In this document: positions 10,503 to 36,221 of the stretch, one piece after another | Numbering within the stretch: position 1 is the first letter of the stretch | Layout of the letters: every line of letters starts with the position of its first letter | Source: Chrysochromulina tobinii | Lineage: Eukaryota | NCBI GenBank assembly: GCA_001275005.1 | Contig: JWZX01002168.1 | Coordinates: 1 to 43,375, forward strand | Direction of reading: 5' to 3' | DNA: 43,375 bases | Notes under the pieces: generated by a model | Seen by the model: only the letters and a program-made list of their open reading frames with translations | Database searches by the model: none | What the model was told of the DNA's origin: nothing | Translations under genes and position numbers: made by a program

Positions 10503-13500
10503 ATGCCCTTTTTGTCGAGGTGTGAACTGCGGTGTTCGAACTTGCCGATTGAGAACTCGTCTGATTTTCTGATTGCCGCGACAGCACTACGCGGGGGAGT
10601 CATCTTCGGTTCGTCGCAGAGCGTCGGGGCCATCCGGTTGCTCACGAACGGACGCATGCGCGACGAGATCGAGCGCGAGATCATCATCGAGGAGCTTCGC
10701 TGGCTCGAGGCGCGCGCTTTGGAGTCACGCCTCGTCGCAGTGGTCACGTCCTTCAACTTCGCCATCAGCAGCCGTAAGTTTGGCCTGTCGTTAAACGAGG
10801 CGAACGTAATCCTACGCATCGACGCGGACGGTCTCGCCGCTGAGGATGGCACGCTGCGCGTCGGCGATCGCCTCATCGCCGTCAACACGACGCCCATCAA
10901 CATCGGCGACAGCATCAGCGAGGTCATCTCTGGCCTTGACCAGGTGACCTTTGTCGTCGCGCGGCGTGTAGCGACCGAGCACGGGCTGCAGGCGCGGATG
11001 GCCGCCGCAGTGTCATCATACGCCAGCCCAGCCCAGCAGCTCAAGACACCCGCCGAGCTCGCCAAGGAGATCCAGGCGCAGGCACAGAACCCACCAGACG
11101 CGGGTGCGGAGCGCACGACGTTCGCGCAGGTGCAGAACGTAGTCGGCTCCGCCGTGTCGACCCTTTTCTCGCGCCAGTTCGGCAAAAAGGATGGGCCCGC
11201 GGCCAAGACGGGAGCCGACGGTGGCAACAGCAGCACGCCCACGCTCGCGCCTTCAGACGCGTCCACAATGGAGGACTTTGGCGCCATTGGCATCGACAGC
11301 CTCGACGTGGGGGCACCGCCACCGCCGCCGCCATCCTCTAGAGCGATGACCCCGCCGCCACTCCCGGCGCCGCTCCCGGCGCCGCCACCCTCGCAGCCGC
11401 CCGACCTACAGGCGAGCCTACGGCCGCCGCCGGTGAGTGGATCGAGGTCTGCGAGTGAAAGTGCGACCGCGGCAGCCAGCGCCGCGGCCGCCGCGGCCGC
11501 CGCCGCGGTGAGTAAGAAGCTCGGCACCTACTTCCCCACACGCCGGAAGACGGTCACGGGGGGTGCGCCGGCGCCGTCGGCAGCCGGCCTCGCGACGGGA
11601 CGCGACTCGCCCGATTTGGAAGGAGAGGGGGCGCCCACGACGGCGCTCACGACGGCGCTCACGACGGCGCTCACGGCGGCGCTCACGGCGACGGAGGGCG
11701 AGGGAGGCGGCGGCTCCTCCCCCGAGGGCGCGCCGTCGCGGGCGCCACGTGCCGAAGGAGCTCACGACAGCGCGCCCTCGGCTGCGGGAGGCGCCAGCGA
11801 CGACGCGCCCTCGGCCGTCGAAGGAGCCTCGCCGCTCTCGTGCGAGAGCGGCGAGGACAGTCCCAAATTTGGGAGGCACCGCATCGGCGACGCCGTGCAC
11901 GACTCCGACATCCAGACTGTGCTCGAGACCATCTCCCCGGGCCTCTCGCGATGGAGCCGGGGGCGCGATCGCTGGCTGGCGGCGGACGGGGCGGCGGCGC
12001 CGCCGCCGTCGGTCACCGCGCCCAACACAGCGCAGGCGCCCAACACAGCGCCCGCACCTGCCGTGGAGGGCGGCACCGGCGCTGTGTTGGGCACAGACGC
12101 TGTGTTGGGCGGCACCGGCGACGGGTGCACTTCCGCCCAAGACGGCGCCGGCGCCGGCGTGGCCCTCGCCGCCGCGCGCCCGCCGCGGCAGCTCAGTCGG
12201 CACCGGCGCACCGGAGCGACCAGCGGCGCGCCCACGGCGGCGCGCCCGCCGGCGATGGCCTCGCTGCTGCGCCGGCTGCCCTCGCTCTCGGAGATTGTGG
12301 CGCAGATCAGCCCGGAGCCTCCGCGCCCTGATGAGTTGGACTCCGCGGCCTCGGCAGAGCTCGCGGCGAGGCTTCGCGTTGAGAACTCTCCCGGGCTGCT
12401 CCAGATTCAAATCGTCTCCCTCCACGCCCCGCATGACGCCCCACTCGTGCATGCAAGTGCTCACCACGGCGTCTCTCCCGGTGAGGCGGTGCCAGCTTCG
12501 TCAGGCGCGGCGCCGGCTTCGTCAGGCGCGGTGCCGGCTTCGTCAGGCGCGGCGCCGGCTTCGTCAGGCGCGGCGCCGGCTGCAGCGCCGGCTGCGATGC
12601 CGGCGGCTAGCGTGCTGCTGGGCGTTCGGGTGGAGGCAGTCGGTTTGTGTGAGGTCGGCCTGAGTGTCGACACCTGCAGCGCGGCCGGCACGCCGGACTC
12701 AGCCACTCCCGATGCGGCCTGGTCGTGGCGGTTTGCGCACTGGATGTGGTGGCCCGTGCCGCACACGGTTGCGCCGTCGGCGATCTCGGCGATCCAGCTC
12801 AAGCTCAAGCTCATCTCGCGCGACGAGGCCCCTGGGCGCCGGTCGCCCGAGCTGCTGCAGGCGAGCTACCGTCCCGACCTGCAGGCGAGCTTGAGGCCAG
12901 GTGACTTGGGGAAGAAGGAGGAGGAGGCGGAGGCGGCGCTTGGGGTGGCCGAGCTCGCATTAGCCAAGGTGCTCGCCTCTCCTCACGAGGCGCTCCTCTT
13001 CACACTCCCCGTGCATGCAAGTGCTCACAACGGCGCCTCCCCTCACGAGGCGCTCGCCTTCTCACGCCCCGTCGCCCTCACCCCATCGGGCAATGGCGGT
13101 GTGCCCGTGAACGGCACCGACAGCGCCGCCGTGGGCGCTCACGGCAGCGCCGCGACGAGCCTTCCCGCTGCCGACGGCGCCGTGGTGGGCGTCTCCGCCG
13201 CCGACGGCAGCAGTGTGCCCACACGAGGAGTCGCCCACGACGGCGCCCATGTCGGCGCTCATGATGGCGCCCACCACGGCGCCCACCACGGCGCCTCTCC
13301 CGTGGGCACGCTGCTCGTGCGCGTGACGTGGCGCCCGACGCTCGACGTGCCCGACGCAACGCTCCCGCTCGACGTGTACGGGTTCCAGGTCCCGATGGCG
13401 CACGTGCTCGCCTTCCATCGCGTGCGTGTGTCCACCGGGCGCGATAGCACCATGTGGCTCTCTCAATGGAACGCCCTGATGCGCCGCACCGGCGTCGATG

Positions 13501-15984
13501 GCTCGCTGCCCGCCGAGGCCGCGCAGCTCGCGCGCTCGAAATTCGGCCGTGTGCCCCTCCAGCATCGGCCCCACGCTTGGTTGTGCCTCTCGGGGGCACG
13601 CGACCTGATGCTCGCCTCCGCAGTACCATATCGGGAGCTCGTACGACGCGCCGAGATGGGCGAGGCGCCCATCGACCGCGACGTGAGCAAGCAGCTCGAC
13701 CGCGACCTGCCACTGATGACCTCTGATGACCTCTGATGACCTCTTGATTGCTCCCCTCATCAGGTGAGCAAGCAAATCGAGCGCGACCTGCCACGCACTT
13801 TCCCACAGCATCGAGCCTTCGCATCCCCCACAGGGCTGCGCGAGGCACTGCGGCGTGTGCTCCTCACCTATGCGTCGTACAACGTCTCGGTCGGCTACTG
13901 CCAGTCACTCAACTTTATTGTGGCCATCTTCTTGTTGGTGGCGGATGAGGAGGGCGCGTTTTGGCTCTTGGTGGCCCTCTGTCGGACGGTGGTGGCGGAC
14001 TACCACACACGCGATATGAGCGGTGCGCGGCGCGCGCGAGTCAGGAGGCCTTGCATGCAAGTGCTCACCACGGCGCTCCCCTTCCCCACAGGGCTGCGCA
14101 TCGACACGGCCGCCTTCGTGACGCTGGTACAGGAGAAGCTCCCTTCGCTGCATGCGCACTTTGTCAAGCTCGAGGTGCCTCTCGATCTCTCTGAGTTCCT
14201 TTGAGTTCGTCTGAGTGCGCCTGAGTTCGTCTGAGTGCGTCTGAGTGCGTCTGAGTGCATTGCATACAGGTGCCTCTCGAGATCCTCGCCTCGCTGTGGT
14301 GGCTCATCGCATGCTGATTGCCACCCTCATTGCATGCAGGTGCCTCTCGAGATCCTCGCCTCGCAGTGGTGGCTCTGCCTGTACGCGAACGTGCTGCCCA
14401 CCGCCACGCTGCTGCGCATGTGGGACGTGGTGCTCGCGGGCGGCGGCGTGGACACGCTCGTCGCCTCATCCCTCTCGCTGCTGCGTCGCTTCGAGCCGCG
14501 CCTTAAAGAGACAGAGGTGAGCTGATTGCGACTGCTGATGAGCGTTGATTGCGCCCCTCATCAGGTGGGCGGCGAGTGCCGAAGCACTCGAATCTTGATG
14601 ACGAATGAGTGCGGCTGATGAGCGCTGATTGCGCCCCCTCATCAGGACATTGCGGGTGTGTATGCGGTGCTCGCCGAGGCCACTACCGCCGTCTGGGACC
14701 CCGACGAGCTCATGCTCTCGATGCAGGTGCGCTGATTGCCACTGATTGCCACTGATTGCCACTGATTGCCACTGATTGCCGTGTGGGACCCCGACGAGCT
14801 CATGCTCTCGATGTAGGAGGAGCCCCCGGCACTGATTGCCACTGATTGCCACTGATTGCCACCTACATCGATGCAGGAGGAGCCCCCCGGCACAGATTGC
14901 CACTGATTGCCACTGATTGCCACCTACATCGATGCAGGAGGAGCCCCCGGCACAGATTGCCACTGATTGCCACTGATTGCCACCTACATCGATGCAGGAG
15001 GAGCCCCCGGCACAGCGCCTGGCGATGCACGAGCAGCGCGAGAGCAAGCGCAAGGAGGTGCTCGAGGCGCTCATCCGAGACCTTCCATGCTCTGAAGCGG
15101 ACGTGATGCGACTGCTGCAGGTGCGCTGATTGCCACTGATTGCCACTGATTGCCATGGATTGCCATGGACTGCCACGGATTGCCACTGATTGCCACTGAG
15201 TGCCACTGAGTGCCACTGAACGGACGTGATGCGACTGCTGCAGCTCCATGATGAGGTGCAGCGCCGCCAAGGCTTCGTGCACAAGAGTCATTCGATTGCC
15301 ATTGCTGCCGCCGAGGCCGGGGTGCCCAGCTCGGCGGCCGAGAGCACCTCGCTGTGCGCCATGTGCCTCGATAGATACATAAGTGCAACCGACCTTGCAA
15401 GGCTGCTCCTGCTCGGCAGCCCGATGGCCGGTTTGGGGCTTGCCGCGCCCATCGGGTTCACGCGCTCTCCTGAGCGCTCAATACAGCGCGGCGCGCACCC
15501 GAAGAGGCCGCCGTTACAACGGTCTGGACGAACACGTGTGCTCCCGGAGGATGCGGTCGTGGCGGCCAGGACGAAAGCACTGACCGACGATCTGATCGCC
15601 GCCATGGAGGCGGAGGCCGCAGCGGAGGCCGCAGCGGTGGCGGAGGGGGCAGCGGAGGCGGAGGTGGCAGCGGAGGCGGCGGAGGTGGCGGCGGAGGTGG
15701 CGGCGGAGGCGGAAGTGAAGACGGCCGGTGACGTTGCTGAGGCTGCCAACGGCGATGCGCACTCCGACGGGGCCGCTCGGGACGGCGCCGCTCGGGAACC
15801 CCACTCCGACGGGGCCGAGAGAGCGTACAAGGCGGCGGTGGCTGCGTCGGAGGAGATCTTCCTTGTGCTCGACCCGGAGCATGTGGGCTCAATCTCGGTG
15901 CGCCAGCTGCTCGTCGCCTTCCACCCGCCCTCCGCAGAGCTCCGGCTCGCTATAGAGAGGGCGGGGCTCGAGCTCGTCGAGTGA
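10503..15984 (+). CDS. Rab-GAP TBC-domain protein with N-terminal PDZ, a central C2-like domain and a C-terminal EF-hand-like motif (~1,547 aa, 6 inferred introns)
   Basis: PDZ: KFGLSL..AAEDGTLRVGDRLIAVN. TBC: IERDLPRTF (Arg finger), YCQSLNF (Gln finger), EEGAFW, QWWLCLY, LLRMWD. EF-like: FLVLDPEHVGSISVRQL. Introns 13683-13763, 14023-14091, 14175-14339, 14517-14645, 14727-14997 and 15121-15243 give a continuous 4,644-nt frame. Confidence 0.85.
14727..15243 (+). repeat. Intronic (CTGATTGCCA)n arrays with ~60-nt tandem units copying the exon junction
   Basis: Many CTGATTGCCA decamers and three ...CACCTACATCGATGCAGGAGGAGCCCCCGGCAC units, inside introns 14727-14997 and 15121-15243. Confidence 0.9.
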
Positions 15985-16247: not shown

Positions 16248-18033
16248 ATGAACCTCACGCTGCCCGCAGACCTCATCTGGACGGTGGCCGTCACTCCTCT
16301 CGAGGAGCAGCTGCCGCAGCCAACAAAGGCACCACCCCAACCCATTCCGATCCTCAAGTGCGTCCAGACCCCTGCACGCGCCTCGCAATCCTCCATCAGC
16401 AGCCCCTGACACGCGCGGTCTTTGTGTGCGCGCAGTCGCGTGGTCGTTAGCAACCACGCGGCAAAGGCGGCGTTGCGCGAACGCCGAGGCACGCATGATG
16501 CGGCTCATCGTGTAGTGATGCACGTGCCCTCGGCTCCGCCGGAGCTCCGCGTGATGATGTCGATCCCGACCATCTTCAATCCGAACTTGAACGGCATGGA
16601 GCCCATTTCCGACTTCCTTCCCAGCCCGAACGAGACGGTCGGCTTCAAGTGCGCCCCTCGCCTGTCGTGTCCTGATTGCCCGCGATGCACCGCGCGTGCC
16701 CATCTCGCAACGATGCCCGCGAGGCGCGCGCTCCCTCTCCCCACGCCATGTCTCCACGCCACCGCGTGGTTTTGTCTCATCTGCTTGCCCCCACCCTTAT
16801 AACCTCGCAGCTACAAGGTCGACGGGATCCTCGGCTCGGGCTCCTTTGCCACCGTCTTCCGCGCCGTGCACGAAGGCGCCCAGAACCGGCCCGTGGCACT
16901 CAAGTGCCTAAAGAACGCAAAGGAGACGATGGATGCCGGGCTGGGCGAGGCCCGGGTTCAATCTATGATCCGCCTACATGACCCACTCGGCCGCCGGCAC
17001 ATTGTGCGACTGCTCGACTGCTTCTACTACCGCGAGCACCTCTTTCTTGTGTACGAGCGCCTCAACGCGTCCGTCTCGGCGCACTGCACGCACCTCGAGA
17101 CACTTGGCCCGCGCGCGCGCGCTGAGTACTGGCACGCAGGCTCGATCGGGGCCCTCTCCATCCAGATGCTCGACGCGCTCGCCTTCCTCACCTACCTCGG
17201 CATCACGCACTGCGACGTCAAGACGGCCAACATCTGCATCGTCAACGCGGAGCGTCGCATCTTCAAGCTAATCGACTTCGGCTCGGTTGTCCTCACGCAC
17301 GATGCCCACATGTCCTACCTGCAGGTGAGTGCCACTGAGTGCTACTGAGTGCCCCCCGCCCGATCACCTCCCAAGTGCCTCCCGATCGCCGCGCCTCGGT
17401 GGTCCTCACGTGTTCGACACCCACCATGACGCCCACCCACCCCCTACCCTGCAGAGCCTCTGGTACCGCGCGCCCGAGGTGATCCTCGGCCTCAGCTGGA
17501 CGCCCAAGATCGACGTGTGGTCCCTCGGCTGCGTGGCCATCGAAGTCGCGCTCGGCTTCTTGCCCTTCCAGTTCGCGTCGACTGAGCTCGTCCTCGCTGC
17601 CCACAATGCTACCCGCGGGCCCTTCCCACCATGGATGATGGAAGGGCCACTCGGATCCATCTACTTCTCCGGCTCCGGCTGCGTGTACGAGATCGACCCT
17701 CGCGCCGCCGCCCCGGGCGCCTACCTGCTGCACGCCGTGCCCAACACGACGCTGACCGAGCTGCTCGTCCAACAGCTCGATCCCGCCATATTCGGCGACG
17801 TGGTCTCCTTCGGTAACTTCGCAAAGACGCTTCTGACCGTCGACCCCGACGTACGCCCTACTGCGGCGGAGGCGCTGCAGCACCCGTGGATGGCCTCGTA
17901 TGGTCTCCCCCCAATCGATCCTCCGATCGTGCCTGAGGGCCCGCTTCCCCCGATCGATCCCCAGTTCAATTCCCCGATCGGCGCGCCTGTGACGCCCGCG
18001 TCGTCGGACGAGGTCCCTCTGACGGCGAGATAG
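16248..18033 (+). CDS. CMGC/DYRK-related Ser/Thr protein kinase (~471 aa, 3 inferred introns)
   Basis: Exons 16248-16357, 16436-16648, 16811-17324 and 17455-18033 give YKVDGILGSGSFATV, VALKCLK, HIVRLLDCFYYREHLFLVYE, HCDVKTANI, DFGS, YLQSLWYRAPE and IDVWSLGC. Confidence 0.88.
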
Positions 18034-18846: not shown

Positions 18847-21800
18847 TCACGGCGCCACGATGGAGCCACTTGCCCCAATGTCGACGACATTGCTCGAAAC
18901 CACCGGCCCGCCAGTTGCCTGATAGAGGACGAGGCGCAGCTGCGTGAACATCGAAGGTGGCGAGGGCGCCCCGCGCGAGACGACCCACGAGAGCGTACGT
19001 GCCTTGTCGTCCCAGCTGAAGGTGGTGCCGCGCATCGCCGTCGCCGTCGCGTAGTCCGTCGTCTCACCATCATCCTCAATCATCTGGAACGCGCCGTCCG
19101 CGCCGCCGTACACGCGCACCTCGAGCGGCCCACCCGGCAGCGCCCCAGTGTACTGCAAGAGGGGCACGAGGGGAACGATGGCGCCCGCGGGCGCAAACAC
19201 GGGCACAGCGGTGAAGTTGTCGTCGCTGTGAACCACGTCGATCGTGGGTCCCCTGATGGGGATCGTCCTCGTACCTTCCTTATTTGGCTCCGTGTCGAAG
19301 GGATACCACAGCCCCTCAGGCAGGTAGGCCGGGCTCTTCTCAGTCTCGCTTGTGAGGATCGGCGCGACGAGGAGCTCGCCGTCGAGCCACTGCGCAGTCA
19401 GGTCGGTGACGACGGGATCGTTCGGAAAGGCGGCGGCGAGCGGGCGCATCCACAGTCTTCCGGTGGTGTGCATCGCATGTGCGAGGGAGTAGTGGAACGC
19501 GATGAGGCGGTAGCGCTGGTTGAGAGCGCTGCGCATCCGGCTCGCGTATGGTTCGGGCCACAAGAAGGGGAAGTGCGGCTTGGCGTTCAGGGTACTGTGC
19601 ACCCTCATCGTGGGGAAGAAGGCGCCCGCTTGCATCCAGCGCGTCAGCAGCGGGCCGTTGGTCTCTCCAGTGAAGCCGCCGATATCGCACGCTACGTACG
19701 GCGCACCCGCAAGACCCCATCGGAGGATCATCGCGGGTGTGGACAGGAGATCGTCCCAACTTGGGTTGATGTCGCCTGTCCATACGGTAGCGCCCAGTCG
19801 CGCCATGCCAGGCGACCACGCGCGGTTGATTGAGTAGAAGCGCGCCGTCGAATTGTGCGCTGCGAGCGTCTGCTGCTGCGCCAGGTTCCAATAATAAAAG
19901 GTGAAGTAGTCGGTCTCGCCCTCGTCGTTCCAAAAGAAGCTCACGCCGTCGCTCAGGTAGTGCTGCTGGTGCGATACGTACCATTCCCGCGCGGCCGGGA
20001 TGCTGTAGTTGAGGTTACGCTGCTCGGCGTACAGTGATTTGGAGTGCAGCGCCCGCATGGTCTCAGGGGTCTCGCTCAGATTGCGCGGCGGCGCGTCGTA
20101 CTGGGCAGTCTCCCCCCCCGGCAGCACGAAGCCCTTTTGGCGTGCCTCGTCGAGCAGCGCCGTGTTGCCGAGCCGGGGCTTGCGGATGCCGCCGAAGCGA
20201 ATGTGCCTGTCCTCACGGTACGACTGGAACTGCTGCTGCGGCTCCGGGAAGGTGGTGGCGCCGTACCTGATGAGGGATGCACTCAATGGTAATCAGTGGT
20301 AATCAAGGGTATCAAGGGATGCCGCGTAGCTGATGAGGGGCGCAATCATCGATGAGGGGCGCAATCACGGCTGCGGCTCCGGGAAGGTGGTGGCACCGTA
20401 CCCAAAGTCAGTGTACCACGAGACTCCTTCTGGGGTAATCAGTGGCAATCAGTGGTAATCAGTGGTAATCAGTGGTAATCAAGGCACCGTACCCAAAGTC
20501 AGTGTACCACGAGACTCCTTCTGGGGTAATCAGTGGTAATCAGTAGTAATCAGTGGTAATCAAGGCATCGTACCCAAAGTCAGTGTACCACGAGACTCCT
20601 TCTGGGGGGAAGCCGTAGTCGGAGATGTTTGTGAACCATTCAAACTGCGATGAGGGCGGGAGTCGAGCGAGCGTGCGAGTTCACAGCGGGTTCACAGCGG
20701 GTTCATCCGCGTCTCATGGGCGGTCAGCAGTCAGCATGCAATGAGCGGCTTCATCCATGCAATCAACGGCTTCCTCCGCGTCACATGGGGTCAGCAGTCA
20801 GCACGGGTGCACACGCGCGCGGCAGGTCGAGGGGTCCCGGCTCGCACATCGCCGATTGGATATTGGAGGTAATCCGTGGTAATCAGTGGTAATCAGTGGT
20901 AATCAGTGGTAATCAAGGCTCGCACATCGCCGATCATGGCGTCGATTGGGTATTGGCCGTCGCGGAACTGCTGGAGCATCGACTCAATGTACGCGCGGTC
21001 CTTCCATCCCCAGCGGGACGCGAAGAAGCCGAACGCGTATCGTGGCGGCACGGCCGGGGCTCCGATGAGGGCATAATACGATTGCGTGCCCTCGTCGAGC
21101 GTCGACGCGGGCATCAGGTACAGCTCGAAGCCCGTGCCCCGTCTGGGGTGATTCCACGTGACGGCGCTCGTGGTGCGGGTGAAGGTGCTGGGGAAGAGGT
21201 TCGTCTTGCCGCTCCCCGTCGTCTCGCTCTCCGGCACCACGCCAAGGCAGCCGTAGCCGTCGGTGGACCAGTAATAGGGGGCGAAGACGCGCGTGTTGTC
21301 TACGACCGGGGACACCGTACCCGTGATGCTGAGCGCCCTGGCGCTCTTGTCGGCGCCCGCCCCGTACAGCGTGCTGGTGGGCGACGCAGAGAGGACCAGG
21401 CTGCGGGGCCCGAAACCAGTCCCTAGTGTGCGGTCTGAGCGCGGCATCGTGCCATCGATGGCGGACATGAGCCAGCAGTTGCCTTCGGAGTCGCCCGGCT
21501 GTCCATAGATCCAGTGGGCGCATCCTTTCGTGGCCTTGCACTTGCTGCAGCACTCGGCCTCGTTGTGAACCGTCGCCGGATCACCCGCCCGCGTCCCAGC
21601 CGTGATGTCGGTACCCTGCTGTGCCGCGCACGTGTCATTCGATGAGCCACCGTCAATCGGCATGGAGCGCGTCAGCTCCTTGCCGTGCGCGTCGAGGAGC
21701 ACAAGCTCGGAGTTGGGAGACACGAGAACGCTGCCAATGGAGGCAGCCACGATGCCCGTGCCAGTCACACCAGACACCTTTTCGAAGCTTGCATCTGGCC

Positions 21801-25144: not shown

Positions 25145-28100
25145 TCAATTCACATTGAGGTCGATGGCGCGCAGAGGGGCGAAGCTTACATCCTCGTCCT
25201 CGGTGCACAGCATCGCGAGGGGCTCATCCACCGCGCAGCGCCGTGCAAAGTTGTCGAGCGCCGCCGCGCGCGCGTCGGCGTCTTGCTCGTCGCGCCCGTC
25301 GTACGGGGCCAGCGTAAGGAAGCCACCGCCAGCGTGCACGTCGCGCCCAAGCGAAGGGGCGACGAGCAACAGCTTGAGCAGCTCGCGCAGCTCCGATGCC
25401 TCATCTCGCGAGCCGCGTCGCTCGAGCACCTTGGCGTAGATGGAAGCGAGGGTCGAGAGTGTATCGGGGGCATCGGCGAGAGCGATGAAACCGCTCGCGG
25501 CGGCCGCCTGCTCGTGGAGGGTCGAGATCGCGTGCAATAAGAGGCCATCAGAAGAGGAAATCAAGAGGCAATTAACGACACTCGCCTGCTCGTGGAGGGT
25601 CGAGATCGCGTGCAATCAGAGGCCATCAGAAGAGGCAATCAAGAGGCAATTAACGACACTCGCCTGCTCGGCCGCGGTCGCGACTCCGTGAGGGTCGTGA
25701 TCGCGTGTAATCAGAGGCTATCAAGAGGCAATCCAGAGGCAATTAACGACACTCGCCTGCTCGGCCGCGGTCGCGACTCCGCCTCGGTGCGTGCTACTGC
25801 CGCCTCTGCCGTCGCGCCCTCCACGATCGAGACTCTTGTCGAGGTCGCGAATCCTCTCCACCGCCTCGGGCGGCGCGGCCAGCAGCTTCCGAGCCGCCGC
25901 GGCCAACTCGAGGATGTCCGTGGGCAGCAGCACGTTTGCGGGCAGCAAGTTCGCTGACCTCGTCAGCTCGCGAGGAGGGGTGCTCACGCGTACGGTCAGC
26001 GAGGGAGGCTGTGAAGAGGCCGGCTGTGAAGGGCCTCCGCCGCTCTTGCTGCCGCCCCGGCCTCGGTCGTCCCGGCCTCGATCGTCCCGGCCCTGGTCGG
26101 CGATGATGAGAGCGCGCGGGCGGAAGATAGTGCCTCCCTCGAGCACCACGTGCTGCGTGGGCGGCTCGTGCCGATCGTACCGATCGCGCGAGCCCGAGCG
26201 CGCCGGATCGTAACGGTCGCGATCCGAGCCACCCCCTGCAGCGGCCGAGATGGTCGCGAGGGGCAGCGCGCCCCACCCGAGGACCACCACCCTCTCGGGC
26301 TTCTCGGGCTCGACACCGGCGGACCGCTCGTCGCGACCATCTCCGCCGCTACGCCCAAGACGGTCGCCGCCGCGGTCGCCAGAACGGTTGCCAGCACGGT
26401 CGCCGCCGCGCTCGCCGCCGCGGTCGCCGCCGCGGTCGCCGCCGCCACCCCCCTTCGAGCGACTTGCGATGGTGACAGTGAGCTCGAGCAGCAGCTGAGC
26501 GCCACGTGGCATCGAGGCCGAGCGCAAGAGCAACTCACGAGAGCCGCGGGGCAGCAGCCACTGGTTGCGCTTCTCGTCGTAGTCGACGTCGAGGGAGAGC
26601 GTGTTCGCAAAGAAGGCATACTGCGCGCCCGAGGCGGCGCTCGGCGGCGGAGCCGAAGAAGGGCGCGCAGGGTCGTAGCGGTCGTAACGGTCGCGGCTAG
26701 ACGTGGCCGTCGGCGGCGGCGCACGCGTCATCTCAAGGATGGCGACGCGCATCGCCCGCCGTGTGATGAACTCATCTCGCGCGAGCTCCGGAGGCGGCGG
26801 CGCGCTCGCAATGTCATCGAGCTCGAGCAGGTAGCTTGGTGCTTCGAGAGGCACGAGCATCTTGAGGTCGTCGATGAGGCACGCGCGCTCGGAAAGTGGC
26901 GCGGTCACGTCGGCCGTGAGGACGGCGGAGAGCGCGTTCAGGTGCAGCCGCTGCCGCCCGCTGATCGGAGAGAGCGCGAGCGGTAGCGGAGGACGCTTCT
27001 CTTCCCCGCGCCGCTGTCGCTCGTCGTCGTCATCCTCACTGCGGTCGCGGTCGCGGTCGCGGCCGCGGTCGCGGTCGCGGTCGTTGTCGCGGTCGCTGTC
27101 CCGCCCCTTGTTGGCCTCGCCGCGCTCCTTGCCCCCTTTGGTGCGCCGCCCATCCTTCTCGTCCTCCTTGCGGTCCTCCCTGACTGCCTCGGGCAGCCAG
27201 CGCAGCGCGCTCAGCACCGACACGCTCATCGTGAGCGCGCCGACCGACACCGCCTTGCCGCCGCCGCCGCGCCGGCCGCCCTTCTCTTTGGGCTGCTCGA
27301 CCGGTTCGAGCGACCGGCGCACATTCGTCCAGTCGCCGTCTGCGGCAGCGCCCTCGTCGCCCTTGCCCTTGCCCTTGCCCTTGTCCTTGCTGCCTCTCGA
27401 GTCCTTCGCGTCCTTGGGCGGCGGCGTGCGCAGCTCGCTCAGCGGCAGGCGCAGCGTGCCTAGCAGCATGCGGTTCTCGCTCAGCCCGTGCTTGCGCTCC
27501 AAGTCGACGCCGTACAGGTTGAGCACCACCGCCTGCTCCGCCTCGGGCAGCTCCTTCAGCTTCTTGGCGAGCTCATCACGAGATCTCTTGAGCTGCGCGG
27601 TCGCCTCGCCCTTCGCCTCAGGGTCGCGCGTGCGCAGCTCGAGCGCCGCGCTGGGCGTCGCGTGGTCGTGAGCACGTCCCTTGCGCCGTCCGAGGTCGAC
27701 AGGGGGTGAGAGTGTCTCCCCCATCCCGAGCACCGAAATGCCCACCTGCAACGCGTCCACGCGCTCATCGAGCTGCTGCGGATCCGCCAAATGGACCGTG
27801 TGCACCGCCACGTGGACTCGCGTCGCTCGAAGCTCCTCGCGCAGCTTGCCCAGCGCCGAAGCGGCGAGGAGGTCGACGGTGACACTCGCGACCGTCTTGC
27901 CGCCCTCGCGCGCGAGCGTCTGCTTGTGCTTCGTGTAGTCGCCGTTCTTGAGCGTAGTCTCCAGGTTGAGCGTCGCCTCACCTGCGGCGTCAGTTGGCCG
28001 AGCTTCGTCAGAGAGGCAATCAGTGGCAATCAGTGGCAATCCGTTGCAATCAGTGGCCATCAGAGGCCATCAGTGGCAATCAGTGGCCATCAGAGGCCAT

Positions 28101-31100
28101 CAGTGGCCATCAGTGGCAATCAGTGGCAATCAGAGGCCATCAAAGGCCATCAGAGGCAATCAACGAATCTCACCCAGTTCGAAGCGTAGCTCCTCGTCGC
28201 GCTCGCCCTTGCTCCGCGAGGTCTGGCCGCGCGCGGCCGAGGCGGGCGCGAGGGCATGCAGCACCAGGTATACATCCGAGTCCTCGGGCGCCACGGTCGC
28301 AAGCGCGTCGAGCAACGCCCTGCGCGCGGGTGCACCGGCCGACGTAGCAAACGAGCGCTCGAAGGCGAGCGGCTGCGTGGTGCCGTCCTTGTAGAGGTTG
28401 AGCCTCTCCGTGTACAGCGGCGCTTCCTTGCTCGTGATCCCCTTGATGTCAATCTCAATCTGCACCGTGTCGAGACGCTCGAGGCGGTGCTTGCGGATGA
28501 GCTCGTCGATCAGATCGGTCCCTTCGCGGCTGAGCTCGAGCCCCTTGAGCGTCATGCGCAGCGGCTCGTCGACGGTCTTGCCGCCACCGCCACGCCATGG
28601 CGGCACGTCCCCACCCTTGCTCTCGCCCTTGCTGTCCTTGTCCTTGTCGTCCTTTCCGCCCTTGGTCTTCTTGGGCGAGTAAGACTCTCCTCGCGCATGC
28701 GCGGCCGAACGCTCCGCCTGCTCTGCCTCGGCTTCGATGGCGCGGCTCGCATCCTGTGGAGAAGGAGAGGCAATCAGAGGTCATCAGAGGTCCTCAGAGG
28801 TCAGCAGAGGTCATCAGTGACGGGGCGCCGTAATGAGCGCATCGCACCTGCTTCTCCTTATTGAGCCACTTTTGGAACTCAGAGAGCGCCTCGGTGCATG
28901 CAAGCGAGACGACGAGGGTGCCCACGCCCTCCTTGCCACCCGCCGGATCAGCATCTGCCAGCTCGAGCTTGCGCTCCTCGACGTCGTCGCCGAGCTTCAT
29001 CAGCTCGACCAAGTTGAGCTTCGCCTTGCCGAGGATCGAGCCCTCGGGCTTCTTGTCCGAGCTCCCTGCCTGCTTGGCCTCCTTGTCGCTCAGGCCGTAC
29101 AGCAGGAACGTCACATTCGACGCTTCCTTGTCGTCCTTGTTAGCGAGCAGCTCGAAGAACGCGCGGCGCTCCGCGGAGCCAACCGCCAGCCCGTGCGCAT
29201 GCGACCACTTGAGCGTCGTCTTCTCGTCACCCTTGTGCACCGACGAGCCGAGCTGGAGGGTCTTTCCGTCGGCGGCGGGCACCTCGATCCAGATGCGCAG
29301 GTGCGCTGGGGGCTTCTTCTTCGCCTTGCCGCCGAGCGTGAGGGAGTGCAGCTGGAACGTCATCTTGTACTTGGTTGCGAGCGCCGCCACGTCCACCGCC
29401 TTCTCGCTGCCGCCTGCGCCCGCCGCCGCCGAAACGGTCGACGGTGCGGCGGCCGCAGGCTTGTCAGTCGCGGGTGCACCTCCGCCGCTGCTCTCGCTGT
29501 TCACACTCCCCTTCACACTCCCCTTGGCGGCGGCTGGCGTCTTGCCGTCCGCTTCGTCGGCGATCAGCTTGAGCGCGGAGAAGCCCTTGACGGCGCACAC
29601 GAGCGTGCCGATCACGGCCTTGGAGCCAGATTCGACGAGATCGAGCGCGCCATCAAAGTCCTTCTGGTCGGCCAGGAGCTTCTCGAGCGAGACACGCCCG
29701 AGGCCCACCTGAGGAAGGAGGCGATCAGACGACATCAGGGATGCAAACGACATCGGGGTGCAATCAATGGTAATCAGTGGTCATCAAGGCCAGACGCTCC
29801 CCCCGAGGCCCACCTCCTTGCTGATGCCCTCCTTGTCTGTAACCACCGCCGCGAACTGCACCTCGCTATCCTCGGGCTCGCTCGTCTTGAGCGCGCGCAC
29901 AATCGCGGTGCGGAGGTCCGTTCCACCGGCCACGTCGTACGTCTGCTCGAGGGCGAGCGCCGTCGAGGTGCCATCCTTGGACTCGATGGTGATCGGCTCT
30001 GTCTTGACCTCGAGGCTCGCCACGCCGACCATGTCGATCAGGATGTGAAGCGTGCCGCTGCCGGCGGCCGCGGCGCGCCGGCCGGAGGAGGCGGCTGCGC
30101 CTCCGACGCTCGTGAGCACCGCCTTGCTGCTGATGGTGATGCTCTTGATCGCCACGGTGAGGGTGCTCGAGGCCACAGTGCGCACCGCCTCGGCCGTGAG
30201 CGCGCGCAGTCCCGCGAGGCATTGAGTGGTTACGAAGAGCGCGCCGGCTTCGGAGGCGCTCTTCGACGAGCCATCGCCTGCCCGGAGTGCAACGCGCGTC
30301 TTCGTGAGCTCGGCTCCCGTCGAGAGTAGTGTCGCCAGGGAGAGGCGCGCCGTCGCGATCACCGGCCCGTCGGCGGACCCGCCAGCGGACGCGGGCGCGG
30401 GTGCGGGCGCTGCTGGCGCAGGCGCGCCACCATCTCCAAAGACGTCAGAGTCGAAGAGGGACGGCGGCGGGTCGTCGGAGCTGAAGTCGTGCACGACGCC
30501 CTTGTCCTTGGGCTTGGGCTTCTCTGCTGTGGGTGCACTGCCGCCACCGCTACCCCCCGACGCGGCCCGCAGTGTGAAGACGACCTCCGAATCGACGGGC
30601 GTCTTCTTGGGCGCGAATGCCTTGATGGCGGCCTCACGTGGCGCCGTGCCGGGCTCGAGGGCAAACGAGGCGTCGAAATTGGCGGGAACGGCCTCACCCG
30701 CCTTGGGGGTGAGCGCGGCCGAGGTGCTCGACACGACACCGAGCAGGTCCACGTGGATGACCAACGGCGCGATGGGCTTGGGCGGGCGCACGAGCAACAC
30801 CTCATGCACGGACAGCTTGAGGTTCACCGAGCCCGGCGCGCCGCCGCCAGAGCTCTCCTTGAGCGTGCGAAGCGCGGCGAGAGCGACCACCGAGACGCTC
30901 AGCGTCCCAAGGGTCTCCTTGCCGTTGGGGGAGAGCACGGGGCGCGGCGCCATGGGTGAGAGGTCCTGCCCGGCCGCGAGCAGCGCCTTGAGCGACACGT
31001 GGCAGATGCCGTACGTCGAGGCGCTGCCGCTTCGGTCGAGGGTCTCAACCACGAGCTGAATCTCGCTCTCCTCCTCATCGGCCGCCTCGAGCGCCGTCGC

Positions 31101-34100
31101 GAGCTTCACGGCGAGCTTCGAGAGTGGCGCGAGTGTGAACGACTTGGAGAAGGGGAGTGCGTAGAGGCCTTCGCCGTGCGCGGTCGCCTTAGGGGTCGTC
31201 TCCTCGAGCTCGGCCACGCCGAGCATGTCGACGAGCAGCCGCACGCCATGGCGCGCGGCGGGCGGTGCTTTCTTGAGCTTGAGTTCCGTCACGTCGACGA
31301 AGAGTTGGTCCGAGTGCGCCGACTTGCCCATGGTGGCGAGTGCCGCGATCGCCTTGACGCCGACGGTGAGCTCGCCCACCACGACGCCGGCGCTATCGAC
31401 GATTGGGCGTGGCGTGGGCGGCAGGTCGGCGCCCTTGGCGACCAGATCATCCTCCAGATGCACACGCGCCACCTGATGAGGGGCGTCATCAGGAGGTCAT
31501 CAGAGGCAATCAGATGGCGACCAGATGGCAACCAGCATGCAATCAGAGGCGCACTCACCCCGAGCTCGGTGCATGCAATCAGAGGCGCACTCACCCCGAG
31601 CTCGGTGCATGCAATCAGAGGCGCACTCACCCCGAGCTCGGTGTGCTTCGACTTGTCCTTCGGGTCGACACCGAGCACGACGAACTGGATCTCGCCGTCG
31701 TCCTTCTCGGGCGACGCGAGCGCGTCGAGCAACGCCTGACGAAGCGGCGTCCAGGGGTCATCAGGGCTCATCAGGTGTCATCAGGGCTCATCAGGGCTCA
31801 TCAAAGGTCATCAGTGGCACTCGCCTGACGAAGCGGCGTCCCGTCGGGCTCATCAGGGCTCATCAGGGCTCATCAAAGGTCATCAAAGGTCATCAGTGGC
31901 ACTCGCCTGACGAAGCGGCGTCCCGTCGGAGACATCGTACGCCTCGACCAGCCGCAGCCCCGCGCGGCCAGAGCTCATCTTCTCCTCGGCGGCTCGCAGC
32001 TTGCCCGCGTCATTGCTGCCCGGCATATCGATCTCGATGCGCACGAGGGACGTCTTCGCAAGCTTGTCCTTGAGTCGGATCGCCGTCAGCGTCACCTGAT
32101 GAGGGGCGTCATCAGGAGGTCATCAGAGGCAATCAGATGGCAATCAGATGGCCATCAGATGGCCATCAGATGGCAATCAGCATGCAATCAGAGTCGGATC
32201 GCCGTAAACTGCACCACGATCCGCTGCGACGCGCCCGACGCTTCCTTTTTGCGCTTCTCCGCCTCCGCCACACGCGCCGTCGCGAGCTGCTCTTCGAGCT
32301 GCGCCATCGCCGTCAGCACCTTGCACGTGCACATGAGCGTGCCCACCATCGTCCCCTTGGCCGCCTCGAGTGCATCGGCCGACGCTGATGGCGCGCCGGT
32401 CGGCGGTGCCGCGAGCTCGAGGCTCTCGTTCACGAGGTCCTGATGAGGGGGGCAATCAAGAAGTCATCAGAGGTCATCAGGGAGTCGAGCAATTGGGCGA
32501 CGGTGCCCTGATGAGGGAGGCCATCAGAGGTGCACTCAGAGGTGCACTTAGAAATCAGAAGTGCAATCCACGGCAATCAGAAGTGCAAGGAGAGGTGCAC
32601 TCAGAAGTGCACTCGGAGGTGCAGCCAGGTGGGTGCCGGTAACGACTTGGGCAGGCACCTTATTCTCGTCCAGCAGCGCACCCATGTCCACCACGCCGAG
32701 CGCGAGGGGCGCCGTGCCGGGCGCGACGCCGCCCTTCTTGTCGGTCGCATGCAGCTCGAACCGAATGGTGCCCTCCCGCCCGTGGAGTACCTCGAGCGGT
32801 GTCGGCGGTTGCGCCGCCCTCGCAGGCGGCGCGTCGAGCGCGAGCAGCAGCGCGCGTGTCACCTCGCCCCCTGCGCTCACCTTGACGGAGTGGGTCAGGC
32901 TGAAGGTGCAGCTACCATCCACGCCAAGCGAACCTTCGGCCGAGAGCATCGTGATGATCAGTAAGTGGCAGTCAGTAGCAATCAGTAGCAATCAGTGGTA
33001 ACCAGTGGCAATCAGTGGCAATCACGTGACGAACCTTCGGCCGTCGCGAGCGGCTCGACGGTTGGCTGCCCGCCGAGCTTGACGAGCAGCTTCACCGGCG
33101 TCTTCTTCGCCGGCTTGGCGGAAGCGCTCGTGATCGTGGCGACCGTGGCGCCGACAGTGACCACTGCCTTGGCCGCCAGCTTGCTCGCGAGCGCCGAGAC
33201 GGGCGCTCGTCCGGCGCTGACGGCGAACGGCGTGAGAGCTGCGATCGCGCCCACGGTGCATGTGAGCTCACCGAGCTTGGCACCAATGACGCCGTCCACC
33301 GAGGTACCGATGATGGAGAGCGGGCCCGAGTGGTCCTTGCCCTCGGAGACGAGCTGCTCGAGCGAGCAGCGCGCCACGCCGATCTCACCCTCGGGCAGCT
33401 CGTTGCCCTTCTCATCGCAGGCGAGCACGACGAACTGCACCTCCGAATCCTCAATCTCGTCCGACTCGAGCGCCTTTGCAAACTGCGCCACGAGCGGGTT
33501 GCCCGCGGCCACAGCGAATTCCTTCTTGAAGGCCAAGGTCGCGCCGGAGGCTCGGCGCGGCAGAGTGATGAGCTCAGAGGCTTCCTGGGCCACGCCGAGC
33601 ATGTCGAGCTCGACGCGCAGCCGGGCGCCCTTCTCACCCAGGGAGCCCGCGGCGCGCGCCAAGACCTTATCGGCGAGCGTGAGCGATCCCATGCTCACCT
33701 GATGAGGGGCGTCATCAGGAGGTCATCAGATGCAATCAGATGACAATCAGATGGCAATCAGGTGAGCGATCCCATGCTCACCGTCACCGCCTCGGGCGTG
33801 CCCAGCGCCGTGCTGAGCGCGCCCGCGAGCGCGTCGTTCACGGCGTCGGCCCGGGGCGATGAGACTCCGTCTACCCCGGCCTCGCTCTCGGGGATCTCGT
33901 CAGATCGGATCTCGCCGCTCCTCTTTGAGGGGCTGAAGGCGCGAACCGCTTTCATCGACGCGCCGAGTCGGCGGCTCGGAGTCAGTGAGCTGTTGGGCTT
34001 CGCACTCTCGGGCTCCTTCTTCGTACTGCCGGGCGCCGCGCCTGCCTTCGAGGCCTCGGCTGCCTTGGCCGCCTTGCCGCTGAGCCCGACGCCCTTCCCC

Positions 34101-36221
34101 TCGTCCTCCTCGGTCTCGGGCGCGCGCCGACGGCGAGCCGCCTCGGCCGGCGCCGTCTTGGGCGCCTCCTCGGCCGGCTTGGGCGCCGTGGCGGGCGTTT
34201 TGGACGCGTTCTCGACCGCTTTGAGGGCCGCGATGGCGGTGATCATGCACGTGAGCTGGCCGACAGGCTCCTTCTCACCGGTGCGACGGATGGCCAGCGG
34301 GCCCGAGTGGTCCTTGCCATCGGAGACGAGCTGCTCGAGCGAGCAGCGCGCCACGCCGATCTCGCCCTCGGGCAGCTCCTTGCCCTTCTCATCGCAGGCG
34401 AGCACGACGAACTGCACCTCTGAATCCTCGGTTTCATCAGAATCGAGCGCCTCGAGATACCTAATTAGGGACATGGGGCGCTGTGGGGTGAGCGCTTGCA
34501 TGCAAGGAGACGCAGGCCATCAGTGGCAATCAACGTACGTGAGACGCAGCGCTGGTTGTGCGCGCGCGTGCATGCAAGTCAGGTCATCAACGGGCAGGTC
34601 ATCAGTGGCAATCAACGTACTTGAGCGCGAGCTTCGACTCCGGTCCGGCGAGGTAGTCTCTCTCAAACGAGAGTGGCGCACTCGCCTTCGCACCGAGCTT
34701 GCTCGGGGCCGTGCGCAGGTTCTCCTTGTCGGTAGCAAGCATATCAATCTCGACACGAATGTACGTCACCTTCTGCGGCTTGGCGTCGGCCGCGGCTCCT
34801 TTGCCCTTGTTCGCCGCCGGCAGCGTCGCGCCCGACTCGGCGAGTGTCACGGACGAGAGCGCGACGCGAACCGACGGAACGCCACTCAGAGCCGTGGCAG
34901 CCACGGCGGCGCCCTTGCCGCCACTCAGGCTCAGGATGCTCCTCTTCTTGCCGCCTTCGTCGGGCGCCGTGTCGTCTTCCTCGGCGTCGAGGCCGCGCAG
35001 CACCGCCAGGCACTCGACCGTGCACGTGAGCGTGCCGAGCGGCTGCGGATTCGTGTGGAGGCGGACATCAGAGCTCATCAGAGGCCGTCCTTAGAGGTCC
35101 TCAGAGGCAATCAGAGGTCATCTGAGGCCATCATCAGAGGTCCTCAGATGTCCTCAGAGGCCATCAGAGGCCATCAGAGGCCATCTGAGGCCAGCAGAAG
35201 GCCATCAGCGCACCTGCGGACTCTTGTCAAGGGAAAGGATCGGCAGCTCGCTCTCCTCATCCTCGACGTCGCGCAGCCCGTCGATCGACTTGCTCAGGTC
35301 CACCTCGGCCGTGCCCAGAGGCGTCGCCTTGCCCCCCTTCTTGACCGAATCCACGTAGATGCGCAGCTTCAGGCTCGACTGTCGTCGCGCCTTCATCAGC
35401 GCAGTGCAAAGCGCCGTGCCGGGCGGCACCGGCCACGTCGCGTCAAACTCCAGAGCCGCCACGCTGTCCGTGAGCGGGAGCGCCGGGCACGAGATGGGTT
35501 GGAGCAGCCCGGGCGGCACGCCCACCACCTCGCAGCGCAGCGCTGCGTATTCGACAGCCAGGGCCTTTGGGCTCTTGGCATCAAGAGCGAGCTCTGTCGC
35601 CTTGAGCACGAGCACCTGACGGCTCTTGGTAGCCTTGGCGGCGACGTCGGCGGCGGCGGCCTCCATCGCGTCGGCCTTGAGCGCCGTCATCGCAGCGAGC
35701 GAGTGCGTCGTGAGCGTGAGCTCTCCCACCTGGCTGCTCGCGGCATCCCGCACGGGCAGCGACTCCCCGTGCACCTCCTGCTTGTTGTGGAGGATCGTCT
35801 CGAGACGAAAGACGGCCGTGCCGAGGAGCGTCTCCTTGGCCGCAGCCGAATCTTTCTTCGCCGACGTGGTGGGTGCGTCCTCGTTCACGCCGTAGACGTT
35901 GATGAGCACCTCGCTATCCTCATCTTCATCGGTCAGCAGTGCGGCGATGAGCGCTTCGCGCACCGGGTTGTCGCTGCCACTCGAGCCGATTTCGTACTTG
36001 CAAAGCCAGTTGACCTTGGCCTCGCCAAGCTTGAGAACCACGGCCGCCGACCGCTTGAGCTCGTCCTCTTGCCCGGGCATGTCCAACTCGACGATCACCT
36101 TCTTGCCATCGTACCGCTGTGCGAGCTTGCTGGTGAGCGAGACGCTCACCACCGTGAGCTCGATTTTCGCGTCGGCCGGCGTGCGCGCGCCGAAGAGAGA
36201 GATGCGCGACACTGCTTTCAT
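25145..36221 (-). CDS. Giant ciliary transition-zone-like protein: ~12 tandem RPGRIP1/RPGRIP1L-C-terminal-type C2 domains plus a nephrocystin-1-like C-terminal region (~3,084 aa, 12 inferred introns)
   Basis: Recurrent module (V.IDM.G...AL.....EDSEVQF.V.....G.A...L..L.....D......G.L...V....AL). The C-terminus (RRAMRVAIL..FANT..LLLRS..LLLEL..GWGALPL..LEGGT..NLLP..FAPL) parallels NPHP1 as I recall it. Introns 35043-35213, 34461-34620, 33699-33781, 32934-33034, 32440-32658, 32096-32214, 31736-31906 (GC-AG), 31473-31630, 29709-29813, 28754-28847, 27982-28173 and 25508-25756 (GC-AG) give a 9,255-nt open frame. Confidence 0.75.
25508..25756 (-). repeat. Three tandem intron-like units, each starting CAG|GCGAGTGTCGTTAATTGCC
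   Basis: The + strand shows GAGGCAATTAACGACACTCGCCTGCTCG three times. Confidence 0.88.
27982..28173 (-). repeat. Intron with (CTGATTGCCA/CTGATGGCC)n array
   Basis: The + strand shows (CAATCAGTGG/CCATCAGAGG)n. G|GTGAG donor and CAG|GTGAG acceptor join ELG-EATLNL. Confidence 0.85.
31473..31906 (-). repeat. Two introns with donor-spanning tandem duplications
   Basis: A 36-nt unit CACCGAGCTCGGGGTGAGTGCGCCTCTGATTGCATG x3, and GACGCCGCTTCGTCAGGCG x3 with CTGATGAGCC/TTGATGACC arrays. Confidence 0.85.

What the first reader, a model, noticed from the sequence alone, without database searches (positions are those of the whole stretch)
14727..14997. Intron contains a copy of its own intronless exon-exon junction (TBC gene)
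14778-14832 reads GCCGTGTGGGACCCCGACGAGCTCATGCTCTCGATGTAG-GAGGAGCCCCCGGCAC. This is the upstream exon end joined directly to the downstream exon start, with 2 substitutions, and it is followed by three more acceptor units. It is either a fossil of the pre-insertion allele or a patch templated from spliced mRNA/cDNA. Either origin constrains the mechanism.
Basis: partly seen in the sequence, partly recalled or inferred. Interest (0 to 1): 0.7.

Follow-up and report, generated by a model that had tools for sequence, protein, structure and literature searches.

The report
Stranded splice junction in newborn intron
A recently gained intron in an algal gene holds a 55-base copy of its own intron-free exon junction, likely left behind when repeated DNA-copying events duplicated the gene's sequence around a repeat filler, which would offer a rare step-by-step view of how new introns are built.

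Summary
Observation confirmed. Bases 14778-14832 match the spliced junction of intron 14727-14997 at 53 of 55 letters; an RNA contig shows this intron spliced, and two other assemblies carry the copy. The gene is a RabGAP-TBC gene of a Chrysochromulina-like haptophyte. The intron looks young: 37 of 38 homologous proteins covering the site read straight through it, and a close sister lineage has versions with and without it. The copy is not a one-off: 12 of 21 introns in the window match their own flanking exons (5 of 420 control pairs), one holds a longer junction copy, and five hold copies needing an unspliced template. Best reading (0.5): the intron was born as donor + 10-base-repeat filler + a 39-base duplication of the exon end that supplied the acceptor; later duplications across that acceptor stranded it. 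No mRNA is needed, but an mRNA/cDNA patch (0.22) or copying from an intron-free allele (0.2) is not excluded. Closest known: Daphnia break-repair neointrons; not a fixed-duplication Introner. The scan earlier noted a repeat-flanked intron in this genome (e1-2577349) and exon-end copies in another protist (e1-7376132).

The parts
14646..14726 (+). Upstream exon (81 nt) of a RabGAP-TBC gene; its last 39 nt (14688-14726) are the source of the first part of the copy
   Evidence: RNA contig pieces, exon ends, Pfam PF00566 on exons 13764-14021 and 14340-14516
14727..14997 (+). Focal GT-AG intron (271 nt in the window, 270 in L001)
   Evidence: RNA joint in run X13; open frame only with the last acceptor
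14727..14777 (+). Donor plus array of the 10-base unit TGATTGCCAC; first 35 nt identical to the start of the next intron 15121-15243
14778..14832 (+). Intron-free junction copy: 39 nt of upstream exon end (internal acceptor at 14816, TAG instead of CAG) + 16 nt of downstream exon start; 3-nt exact overlaps with the repeat at both ends
   Evidence: also in L001 and L002
14833..14997 (+). Three tandem acceptor units of 60 nt period (repeat filler + acceptor + 18 nt of exon start); acceptors at 14876, 14937, 14997. They contain intron end joined to exon start, so their template was unspliced
14862..14871 (+). 10 nt just upstream of the acceptor that are the exact reverse complement of 14808-14817 in the copy, including the variant T (possible fold-back copying; post hoc)
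14998..15120 (+). Downstream exon (123 nt)
15121..15243 (+). Sibling intron: same donor and filler, ends in a perfect 23-nt copy of its upstream exon end, i.e. the inferred first-step state of the focal intron
   Evidence: RNA contigs skip it
20267..20573 (-). Intron of another gene holding a longer junction copy (34 + 32 nt, about 20370-20435); mirror case in which an old co-opted donor was stranded. Ends placed by frame and splice motif, no RNA laid

Best explanation
The 55-base copy sits inside a spliced intron that most homologues lack, and it is likely the intron's original acceptor junction, made by duplication of intron-free genomic DNA and then stranded by later duplications. Inferred steps: (1) at an intron-free CAG|G site, repair-type DNA synthesis switched by short homology onto an existing repeat-bearing intron, copied a donor and five 10-base units, and returned 39 nt upstream, so that the duplicated exon end supplied the acceptor (the state seen in the next intron); (2) a second round left the exon 16 nt past that acceptor, added more units and returned about 9 nt before the acceptor, creating a new acceptor and leaving the old junction inside the intron; (3) the new 60-nt acceptor unit was amplified to three copies. 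Shown: the layout, the splicing to the last acceptor, the copy in three assemblies, the recurrence of flank copies, unspliced-template copies, intron-free homologues. Inferred: order of events, the DNA template, break repair as trigger. The enzyme (a polymerase-theta-like activity is my guess) is untested.
For: Intron-free junction existed as DNA: 37 of 38 proteins that cover the site read through it, among them 7 of 8 from a sister lineage whose ORFs start inside the preceding intron and so were read from unspliced sequence. Flank duplication is routine here: 12 of 21 introns score >=12 against their own spliced junction versus 5 of 420 mismatched pairs, and 11 of 21 have terminal repeats >=7 nt versus 5 of 420; lengths vary 0-23 nt at the ends and up to 39 nt inside. 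Five of 21 introns (focal, 20267-20573, 25508-25756, 31473-31630, 31736-31906) hold long copies of an exon-intron boundary that spliced mRNA cannot template. The step-1 state exists next door (15121-15243) and the mirror case in 20267-20573. Switch points show short homologies (3 nt exact at both ends of the copy, plus a shared 6-mer one unit upstream). The copy has 2 differences while the acceptor units are near identical, as expected if it is older. Five sister-lineage proteins show an in-frame duplication with filler at a site 13 codons before the next intron position where the window's gene has no intron, so duplication plus filler can happen without an intron.
Against: One sister-lineage ORF (P0101) appears to carry the intron (it ends as the window's donor would translate) although that lineage differs by 0-14% per exon in protein; if the intron is shared by descent, a copy only 1-2 letters from the exon may be younger than the intron. 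The intron site at 14175 is shared with more distant relatives (P0001, P0017), and P0001's read-through intron does not begin with an exon copy, which suggests that some flank copies are added after birth. All 75 of 75 repeat-dimer hits in the window are on the sense strand of a catalogued intron, which an RNA template would explain directly (selection and local copying also would; the catalogue was seeded from these arrays). The 9-nt match between the last acceptor and the exon end may be partly chance, because the acceptor also resembles the end of intron 14175-14339. No DNA of the sister lineage could be fetched.
Confidence: 0.5

Rival explanations
1. Patch from the gene's own spliced mRNA or cDNA: a break inside the existing intron was bridged by copying the spliced transcript across the junction, entering and leaving by short homology to the repeats. 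One-sided versions of the same event would give the terminal exon copies, two-sided complete versions precise intron loss.
For: The copy lacks the intron exactly. The intron may predate the copy (P0101). Sister-lineage ORFs lack this intron, and five also lack the next one but keep an in-frame scar centred on that site, a pattern compatible with loss of neighbouring introns. Sense-only arrays. mRNA-templated repair with whole-intron deletion is reported in human cells (PMC12065846, abstract seen).
Against: Not needed: intron-free DNA of this site exists in relatives and unspliced-template copies show that non-mRNA copying is common here. Paralogues and all distant homologues lack both introns, which favours gain. 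No copy crosses a second junction, though the test has no power (copies reach at most 39 nt into an exon, neighbouring exons are 71 nt or longer).
Confidence: 0.22
2. DNA-only but secondary: the intron already existed, and the junction was either copied from an intron-free allele or homologue in the same cell, or arose when donor and acceptor regions were tandemly duplicated and the inner intron copy was deleted between the 10-nt repeats at its two ends.
For: Intron-present and intron-free versions occur in one lineage. The two splice sites share 10 letters. Donor-region duplications exist in four other introns and acceptor-region ones in this intron. The difference at 14783 would be synonymous in the exon frame, as an allelic variant would be.
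Against: Needs an extra event or a second allele; no evidence of an intron-free allele in the runs laid (no DNA joint across the intron, where contigs drop rare variants). Does not by itself explain 11 of 21 introns with terminal repeats.
Confidence: 0.2
3. Assembly artefact: intron-plus and intron-minus haplotypes, or RNA and DNA, merged by the assembler.
For: Tandem 60-nt units are hard to assemble; L002 differs in unit number; the three assemblies may come from related cultures; no long reads seen.
Against: Copy present in the window, L001 and L002, each with the private G at 14783 and new joints to the repeat on both sides; the assemblies differ elsewhere, so they are not one record. A comparable internal duplication in intron 14175-14339 is mirrored in proteins from other records (P0025, P0085).
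Confidence: 0.04
4. Two successive insertions of a classical Introner transposon with a fixed target-site duplication.
For: Introners that carry the donor and co-opt the acceptor from a 4-bp duplication are reported for a Chrysochromulina MAG (10.1101/2022.06.06.494994, passages). The filler is high-copy in the runs.
Against: Duplication lengths vary from 0 to 39 nt, unlike the fixed 3-8 nt of described classes (10.1101/2020.10.14.339549, section 5); introns share at most 46 contiguous letters, not a full-length element.
Confidence: 0.04

Closest known systems
Break-repair neointrons of Daphnia pulex, staggered-then-staggered class (Li et al. 2014, PMC4202315; passages and section 19 read)
   Same: Recent, polymorphic introns; a direct repeat of the adjacent exon end at the far intron end; secondary internal repeats from repeated events at the same place.
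   Different: Daphnia exon-intron repeats are 4-12 bp and the filler is AT-rich; here duplications reach 39 nt, span the splice junction, and the filler is a recurrent array of a branch-point-like 10-mer with ready-made splice ends.
Intron gain by tandem genomic duplication of an AGGT-containing exon segment (review PMC3443670; passages)
   Same: Splice sites taken from duplicated exon sequence; precise gain without coding change.
   Different: Here only one site (or neither) comes from the duplicate and most of the intron is added filler; intron 32934-33034 takes both sites from a 14-nt duplicate but still has filler.
Introners with one carried and one co-opted splice site: Chrysochromulina sp. 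family (10.1101/2022.06.06.494994), Polarella classes 4/5 and 6/8/10 (10.1101/2020.10.14.339549)
   Same: One splice site carried, the other recruited from a flanking duplication; many related introns per genome; no terminal inverted repeats in the Chrysochromulina family.
   Different: Those have fixed 3-8 nt duplications; here length is variable, events are iterated at one site, and members share only short stretches.
RNA-templated double-strand-break repair (PMC12065846, abstract) and templated sequence insertions (PMC5110952, PMC4516963; search listing only)
   Same: An intron-free junction written into DNA, short homologies at the joints.
   Different: The reported signature is whole-intron deletion or insertion from a distant template; here the intron stays, the template is within 40 nt, and intron-free DNA templates exist.

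Membership tests
Break-repair neointron (Daphnia type) | Recent gain, present/absent among close relatives | tested here: met
   37 of 38 covering proteins read through; sister lineage 7 without, 1 inferred with; protein-level only, many rows are members of two clusters
Break-repair neointron (Daphnia type) | Direct repeat of the adjacent exon end at the opposite intron end | tested here: met
   9 nt at the last acceptor, 39 nt at the internal one
Break-repair neointron (Daphnia type) | Secondary internal repeats from repeated events | tested here: met
   three 60-nt units
Break-repair neointron (Daphnia type) | Origin at a double-strand break | not testable with these tools
   inferred from repeats in both cases
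Introner (fixed target-site duplication) | Duplication of fixed length (4 bp in the Chrysochromulina family) | tested here: not met
   terminal repeats 0-23 nt among 21 introns, 39 nt internal
Introner (fixed target-site duplication) | Full-length sequence similarity among family members at unrelated loci | tested here: inconclusive
   longest exact share among 210 intron pairs 46 nt, 35 nt for the focal intron; genome not held
Introner (fixed target-site duplication) | One splice site carried, one co-opted | tested here: met
   donor in filler, acceptor in exon copy (15121-15243 and the internal acceptor 14816)
Tandem genomic duplication (AGGT model) | Intron consists of duplicated exon sequence with both splice sites from the duplicate | tested here: not met
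   donor and most of the length are repeat filler
RNA-templated repair patch | Copy lacks the intron precisely | tested here: met
RNA-templated repair patch | No intron-free DNA template available (intron older than the copy and fixed) | tested here: not met
   intron-free unspliced ORFs in a sister lineage; not shown for the window's own population
RNA-templated repair patch | Copies cross a second spliced junction | tested here: inconclusive
   none seen, but copies are shorter than all neighbouring exons

The most novel reading that the evidence does not exclude
This alga builds and erases introns by repair synthesis on its own transcript: unspliced RNA of a neighbouring intron supplies donor, branch-point repeats and acceptor, spliced RNA supplies exon junctions, and one pathway yields new introns, half-erased introns, precise losses and in-frame scars. 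The sense-only arrays, the near-identical sibling introns within single genes and the presence/absence series in the sister lineage would all be its footprints.
Probability: 0.2. Interest if true: 0.85.

Novelty: new variant of a known kind. Interest (0 to 1): 0.55.

Why it matters
How spliceosomal introns arise outside of transposon bursts is an open question, and most new introns show no trace of their making. Here each young intron records its own assembly in readable pieces (exon copies up to 39 nt, repeat filler, short homologies), about half the introns of the window do so, and close relatives supply intron-free, intron-bearing and scarred versions of the same sites. That makes the DNA-versus-RNA template question testable by counting across one genome and a few strains. 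The single copy by itself does not prove RNA-templated repair. It also warns that a spliced-looking junction in genomic DNA is not by itself evidence of reverse transcription.

Tried and rejected
Whole genome: none held, so no genome-wide count. Logan contigs of two DNA and two RNA runs gave no cover at 14790-14819, the middle of the copy, and the DNA contig over the upstream exon runs unbroken. I do not count this for or against: the tool states that a hole proves nothing, the piece lies between two arrays whose summed depth is in the thousands against about 40, most of 14865-14879 is uncovered too, and two assemblies hold the copy. It leaves raw-read confirmation open. Contig depths were not used as copy numbers. 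DNA of the sister lineage: not found in genome contigs or viral contigs. Repeat-motif scans: 0 hits in viral contigs; 4 hits (L003-L006) are unrelated bacterial or phage sequence and were dropped. Exact look-up of two minus-strand ORFs crossing the copy: not in the collection, uninformative. Representative search with the downstream exon: only the window-type ORF and two repeat-protein hits (P0098 inspected, unrelated; P0099 not inspected). P0078 in the cluster is an unrelated protein and was dropped. The 'open frame' column is unreliable for short exons and was not used. Within-gene similarity of introns is only weakly significant (permutation p 0.027 and 0.085). The idea that the 18 nt after the acceptor are exonised intron made at the insertion was rejected: intron-free sister ORFs already have the same six residues. 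Chance similarity rejected.

Full report
Observation. Window 14778-14832 equals the last 39 nt of the exon ending at 14726 joined to the first 16 nt of the exon starting at 14998, with differences at 14783 and 14814 only. It lies in a GT-AG intron 14727-14997 and is followed by three acceptor units of 60 nt period. One RNA contig (run X13, 1 of 2 RNA runs) joins the exons at the last acceptor. In run X11 one contig stops at 14727 and another starts at 14956, inside the intron, which may be unspliced RNA, use of an earlier acceptor, or DNA in the library. Each earlier acceptor would give a stop 13 codons later. A scan of the metagenome collection with a degenerate exon pattern gave 2 loci, both with the copy. 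L001 matches the window over 10.6 kb but for one C at 14883 and one letter at 15330. L002 keeps the copy's G but has C at the 14814 position and one unit fewer; it also departs from the window at both ends inside repeated genes, so its unit count may be real or an assembly collapse. The laid contigs did not cover the middle of the copy; that is set out under Tried and rejected. No raw or long reads were seen.

Gene and organism. Two of four exon pieces scanned hit Pfam RabGAP-TBC above the curated cut-off. Six introns of this gene are placed by RNA contigs and give one open frame. The nearest named homologues are Chrysochromulina parva proteins, so I infer a Chrysochromulina-like haptophyte.

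The intron looks young. Of 38 fetched proteins that cover the site, 37 read through it: 10 distant homologues, 20 members of a paralogous clade and 7 of 8 from a sister lineage (exons 58/59, 27/27, 38/41 and 199/232 identical to the window's). These rows are largely members of two clusters and are not independent. The sister ORFs begin inside the preceding intron and lie on contigs up to 15.8 kb, so they were read from unspliced sequence. The eighth, P0101, stops as the window's donor would translate, so I infer that it has the intron. At the next intron site, 1 of 6 sister proteins appears to have the intron and 5 have instead an in-frame duplication of six residues with a six-residue filler, and a second such duplication 13 codons upstream. 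All of this is protein-level; the DNA could not be fetched.

The copy is one case of a pattern. I catalogued 21 introns in four genes, 6 from RNA and 15 by frame and splice motif, starting from the repeat arrays, so the set is biased to array-bearing introns. Twelve of 21 align to their own spliced junction with score 12 or more against 5 of 420 mismatched pairs; 11 of 21 have terminal direct repeats of 7 nt or more against 5 of 420. Some take the donor from a copy of the downstream exon start (13683-13763, 14175-14339, 33699-33781, 29709-29813), some the acceptor from a copy of the upstream exon end (15121-15243, 31736-31906), one both (32934-33034). Two of 21 hold an internal junction copy: the focal intron and 20267-20573 with 34 + 32 nt. 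Five of 21 hold long internal copies of an exon-intron boundary, which spliced mRNA cannot template. All 75 repeat-dimer hits are sense-strand and intronic, in 20 of 21 introns, and the five closest intron pairs are all within one gene (46, 39, 35, 32, 32 nt; permutation p 0.027 for the mean, 0.085 for nearest neighbours). The 10-mer contains CTGAT, which I recall as a branch-point-type motif; no call tested that.

Mechanism. An intron whose acceptor comes from a duplicated exon end has an intron-free junction in its DNA by construction; 15121-15243 is such an intron and shares its first 35 nt with the focal one. If the focal intron began that way (14727-14816), a second duplication-plus-filler event reaching across the acceptor would strand the old junction, and slippage would multiply the new acceptor unit. 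The joints carry short homologies with the repeat. Ten letters before each later acceptor are the exact reverse complement of the centre of the copy, variant T included, which would fit fold-back synthesis of the kind described for polymerase theta (PMC11292364, abstract seen); this was noticed after the fact and the acceptor also resembles another intron's end, so I give it little weight. I put this DNA-only, birth-then-stranding reading at 0.5.

What speaks against it. If P0101's intron is shared by descent, the intron may be older than a copy only 1-2 letters from its exon. The site at 14175 is shared with more distant relatives, one of which lacks the exon copy at the donor, though repeated gain at one site is common in Daphnia. 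The sister lineage's series could be read as losses. These points keep alive a patch from spliced RNA (0.22) and a secondary DNA route, from an intron-free allele or by duplication and deletion between the 10-nt repeats at the two splice sites (0.2). The cleanest test, a copy that crosses a second junction, has no power in this window.

Comparison and novelty. It works most like the staggered-then-staggered neointrons of Daphnia (PMC4202315; passages and section 19), with longer duplications and a standard filler. It fails the fixed-length test for Introners (10.1101/2022.06.06.494994 passages; 10.1101/2020.10.14.339549 passages and section 5; PMC12130899 passages, no mention of haptophytes in the main text) and the all-exon test for tandem duplication (PMC3443670 passages). 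Searches listed no paper on repeat-array introns with variable flank duplications in haptophytes; the library lacks most subscription papers and I read no supplements, where such families could be listed. Earlier notes of this scan report a 15-nt-flanked intron elsewhere in this genome and exon-end copies in another protist; I took paper leads from them and checked only the pattern in this window.

Verdict. Real, not unique, and most simply a stranded first acceptor of a young intron. New variant of a known kind; interest 0.55, because the system makes the template question testable rather than because this copy settles it.

Noticed in passing
proteins P0063, P0100, P0105-P0107 (site of window intron 15121-15243 and 13 codons upstream): Sister-lineage orthologues carry two in-frame duplication-plus-filler scars (12 and 13 residues) in coding sequence, one centred on the intron position; either failed intron births or imprecise losses.
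   Followed up: partly
window 14346-14460: DNA runs hold a second version of this exon with 4 differences at single-copy depth; its residues match the Chrysochromulina parva paralogue P0084, and related proteins share the internal duplication of intron 14175-14339, suggesting exchange between paralogues.
   Followed up: partly
window 20267-20573 (minus): Second intron with an intron-free junction copy (34 + 32 nt); host gene looks like a glycoside hydrolase (label recalled from motifs, no call).
   Followed up: partly
window 31473-31630, 32096-32214, 33699-33781 (minus); 20267-20573 and 20645-20925; 14727-14997 and 15121-15243: Introns of one gene share long exact stretches (32-46 nt), hinting at copying from a neighbouring intron.
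   Followed up: partly
window 25508-25756 and 31736-31906 (minus): Two introns with apparent GC donors, each with tandem copies of exon end plus donor; ends not confirmed by RNA.
   Followed up: no
window 14517-14645 and 32440-32658: Introns with two acceptor-like ends in series separated by about 30 nt of unexplained sequence.
   Followed up: no
window 14023-14091, 34461-34620, near 12440 and 13000: A second, non-decamer intron motif of very high depth in the runs; matches near 12440 and 13000 may mark further introns or remnants in the 5' part of the TBC gene.
   Followed up: no
window 14883 and 15330: Window-specific letters (an extra C; C where L001, L002 and four runs read T), probably errors of this assembly.
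   Followed up: yes
L002 (reverse strand 19078-20120 and both ends): Inverted 95%-identical copy of the kinase-like gene at window 16939-17980, with the same intron; L002 leaves the window's gene order inside repeated genes.
   Followed up: no
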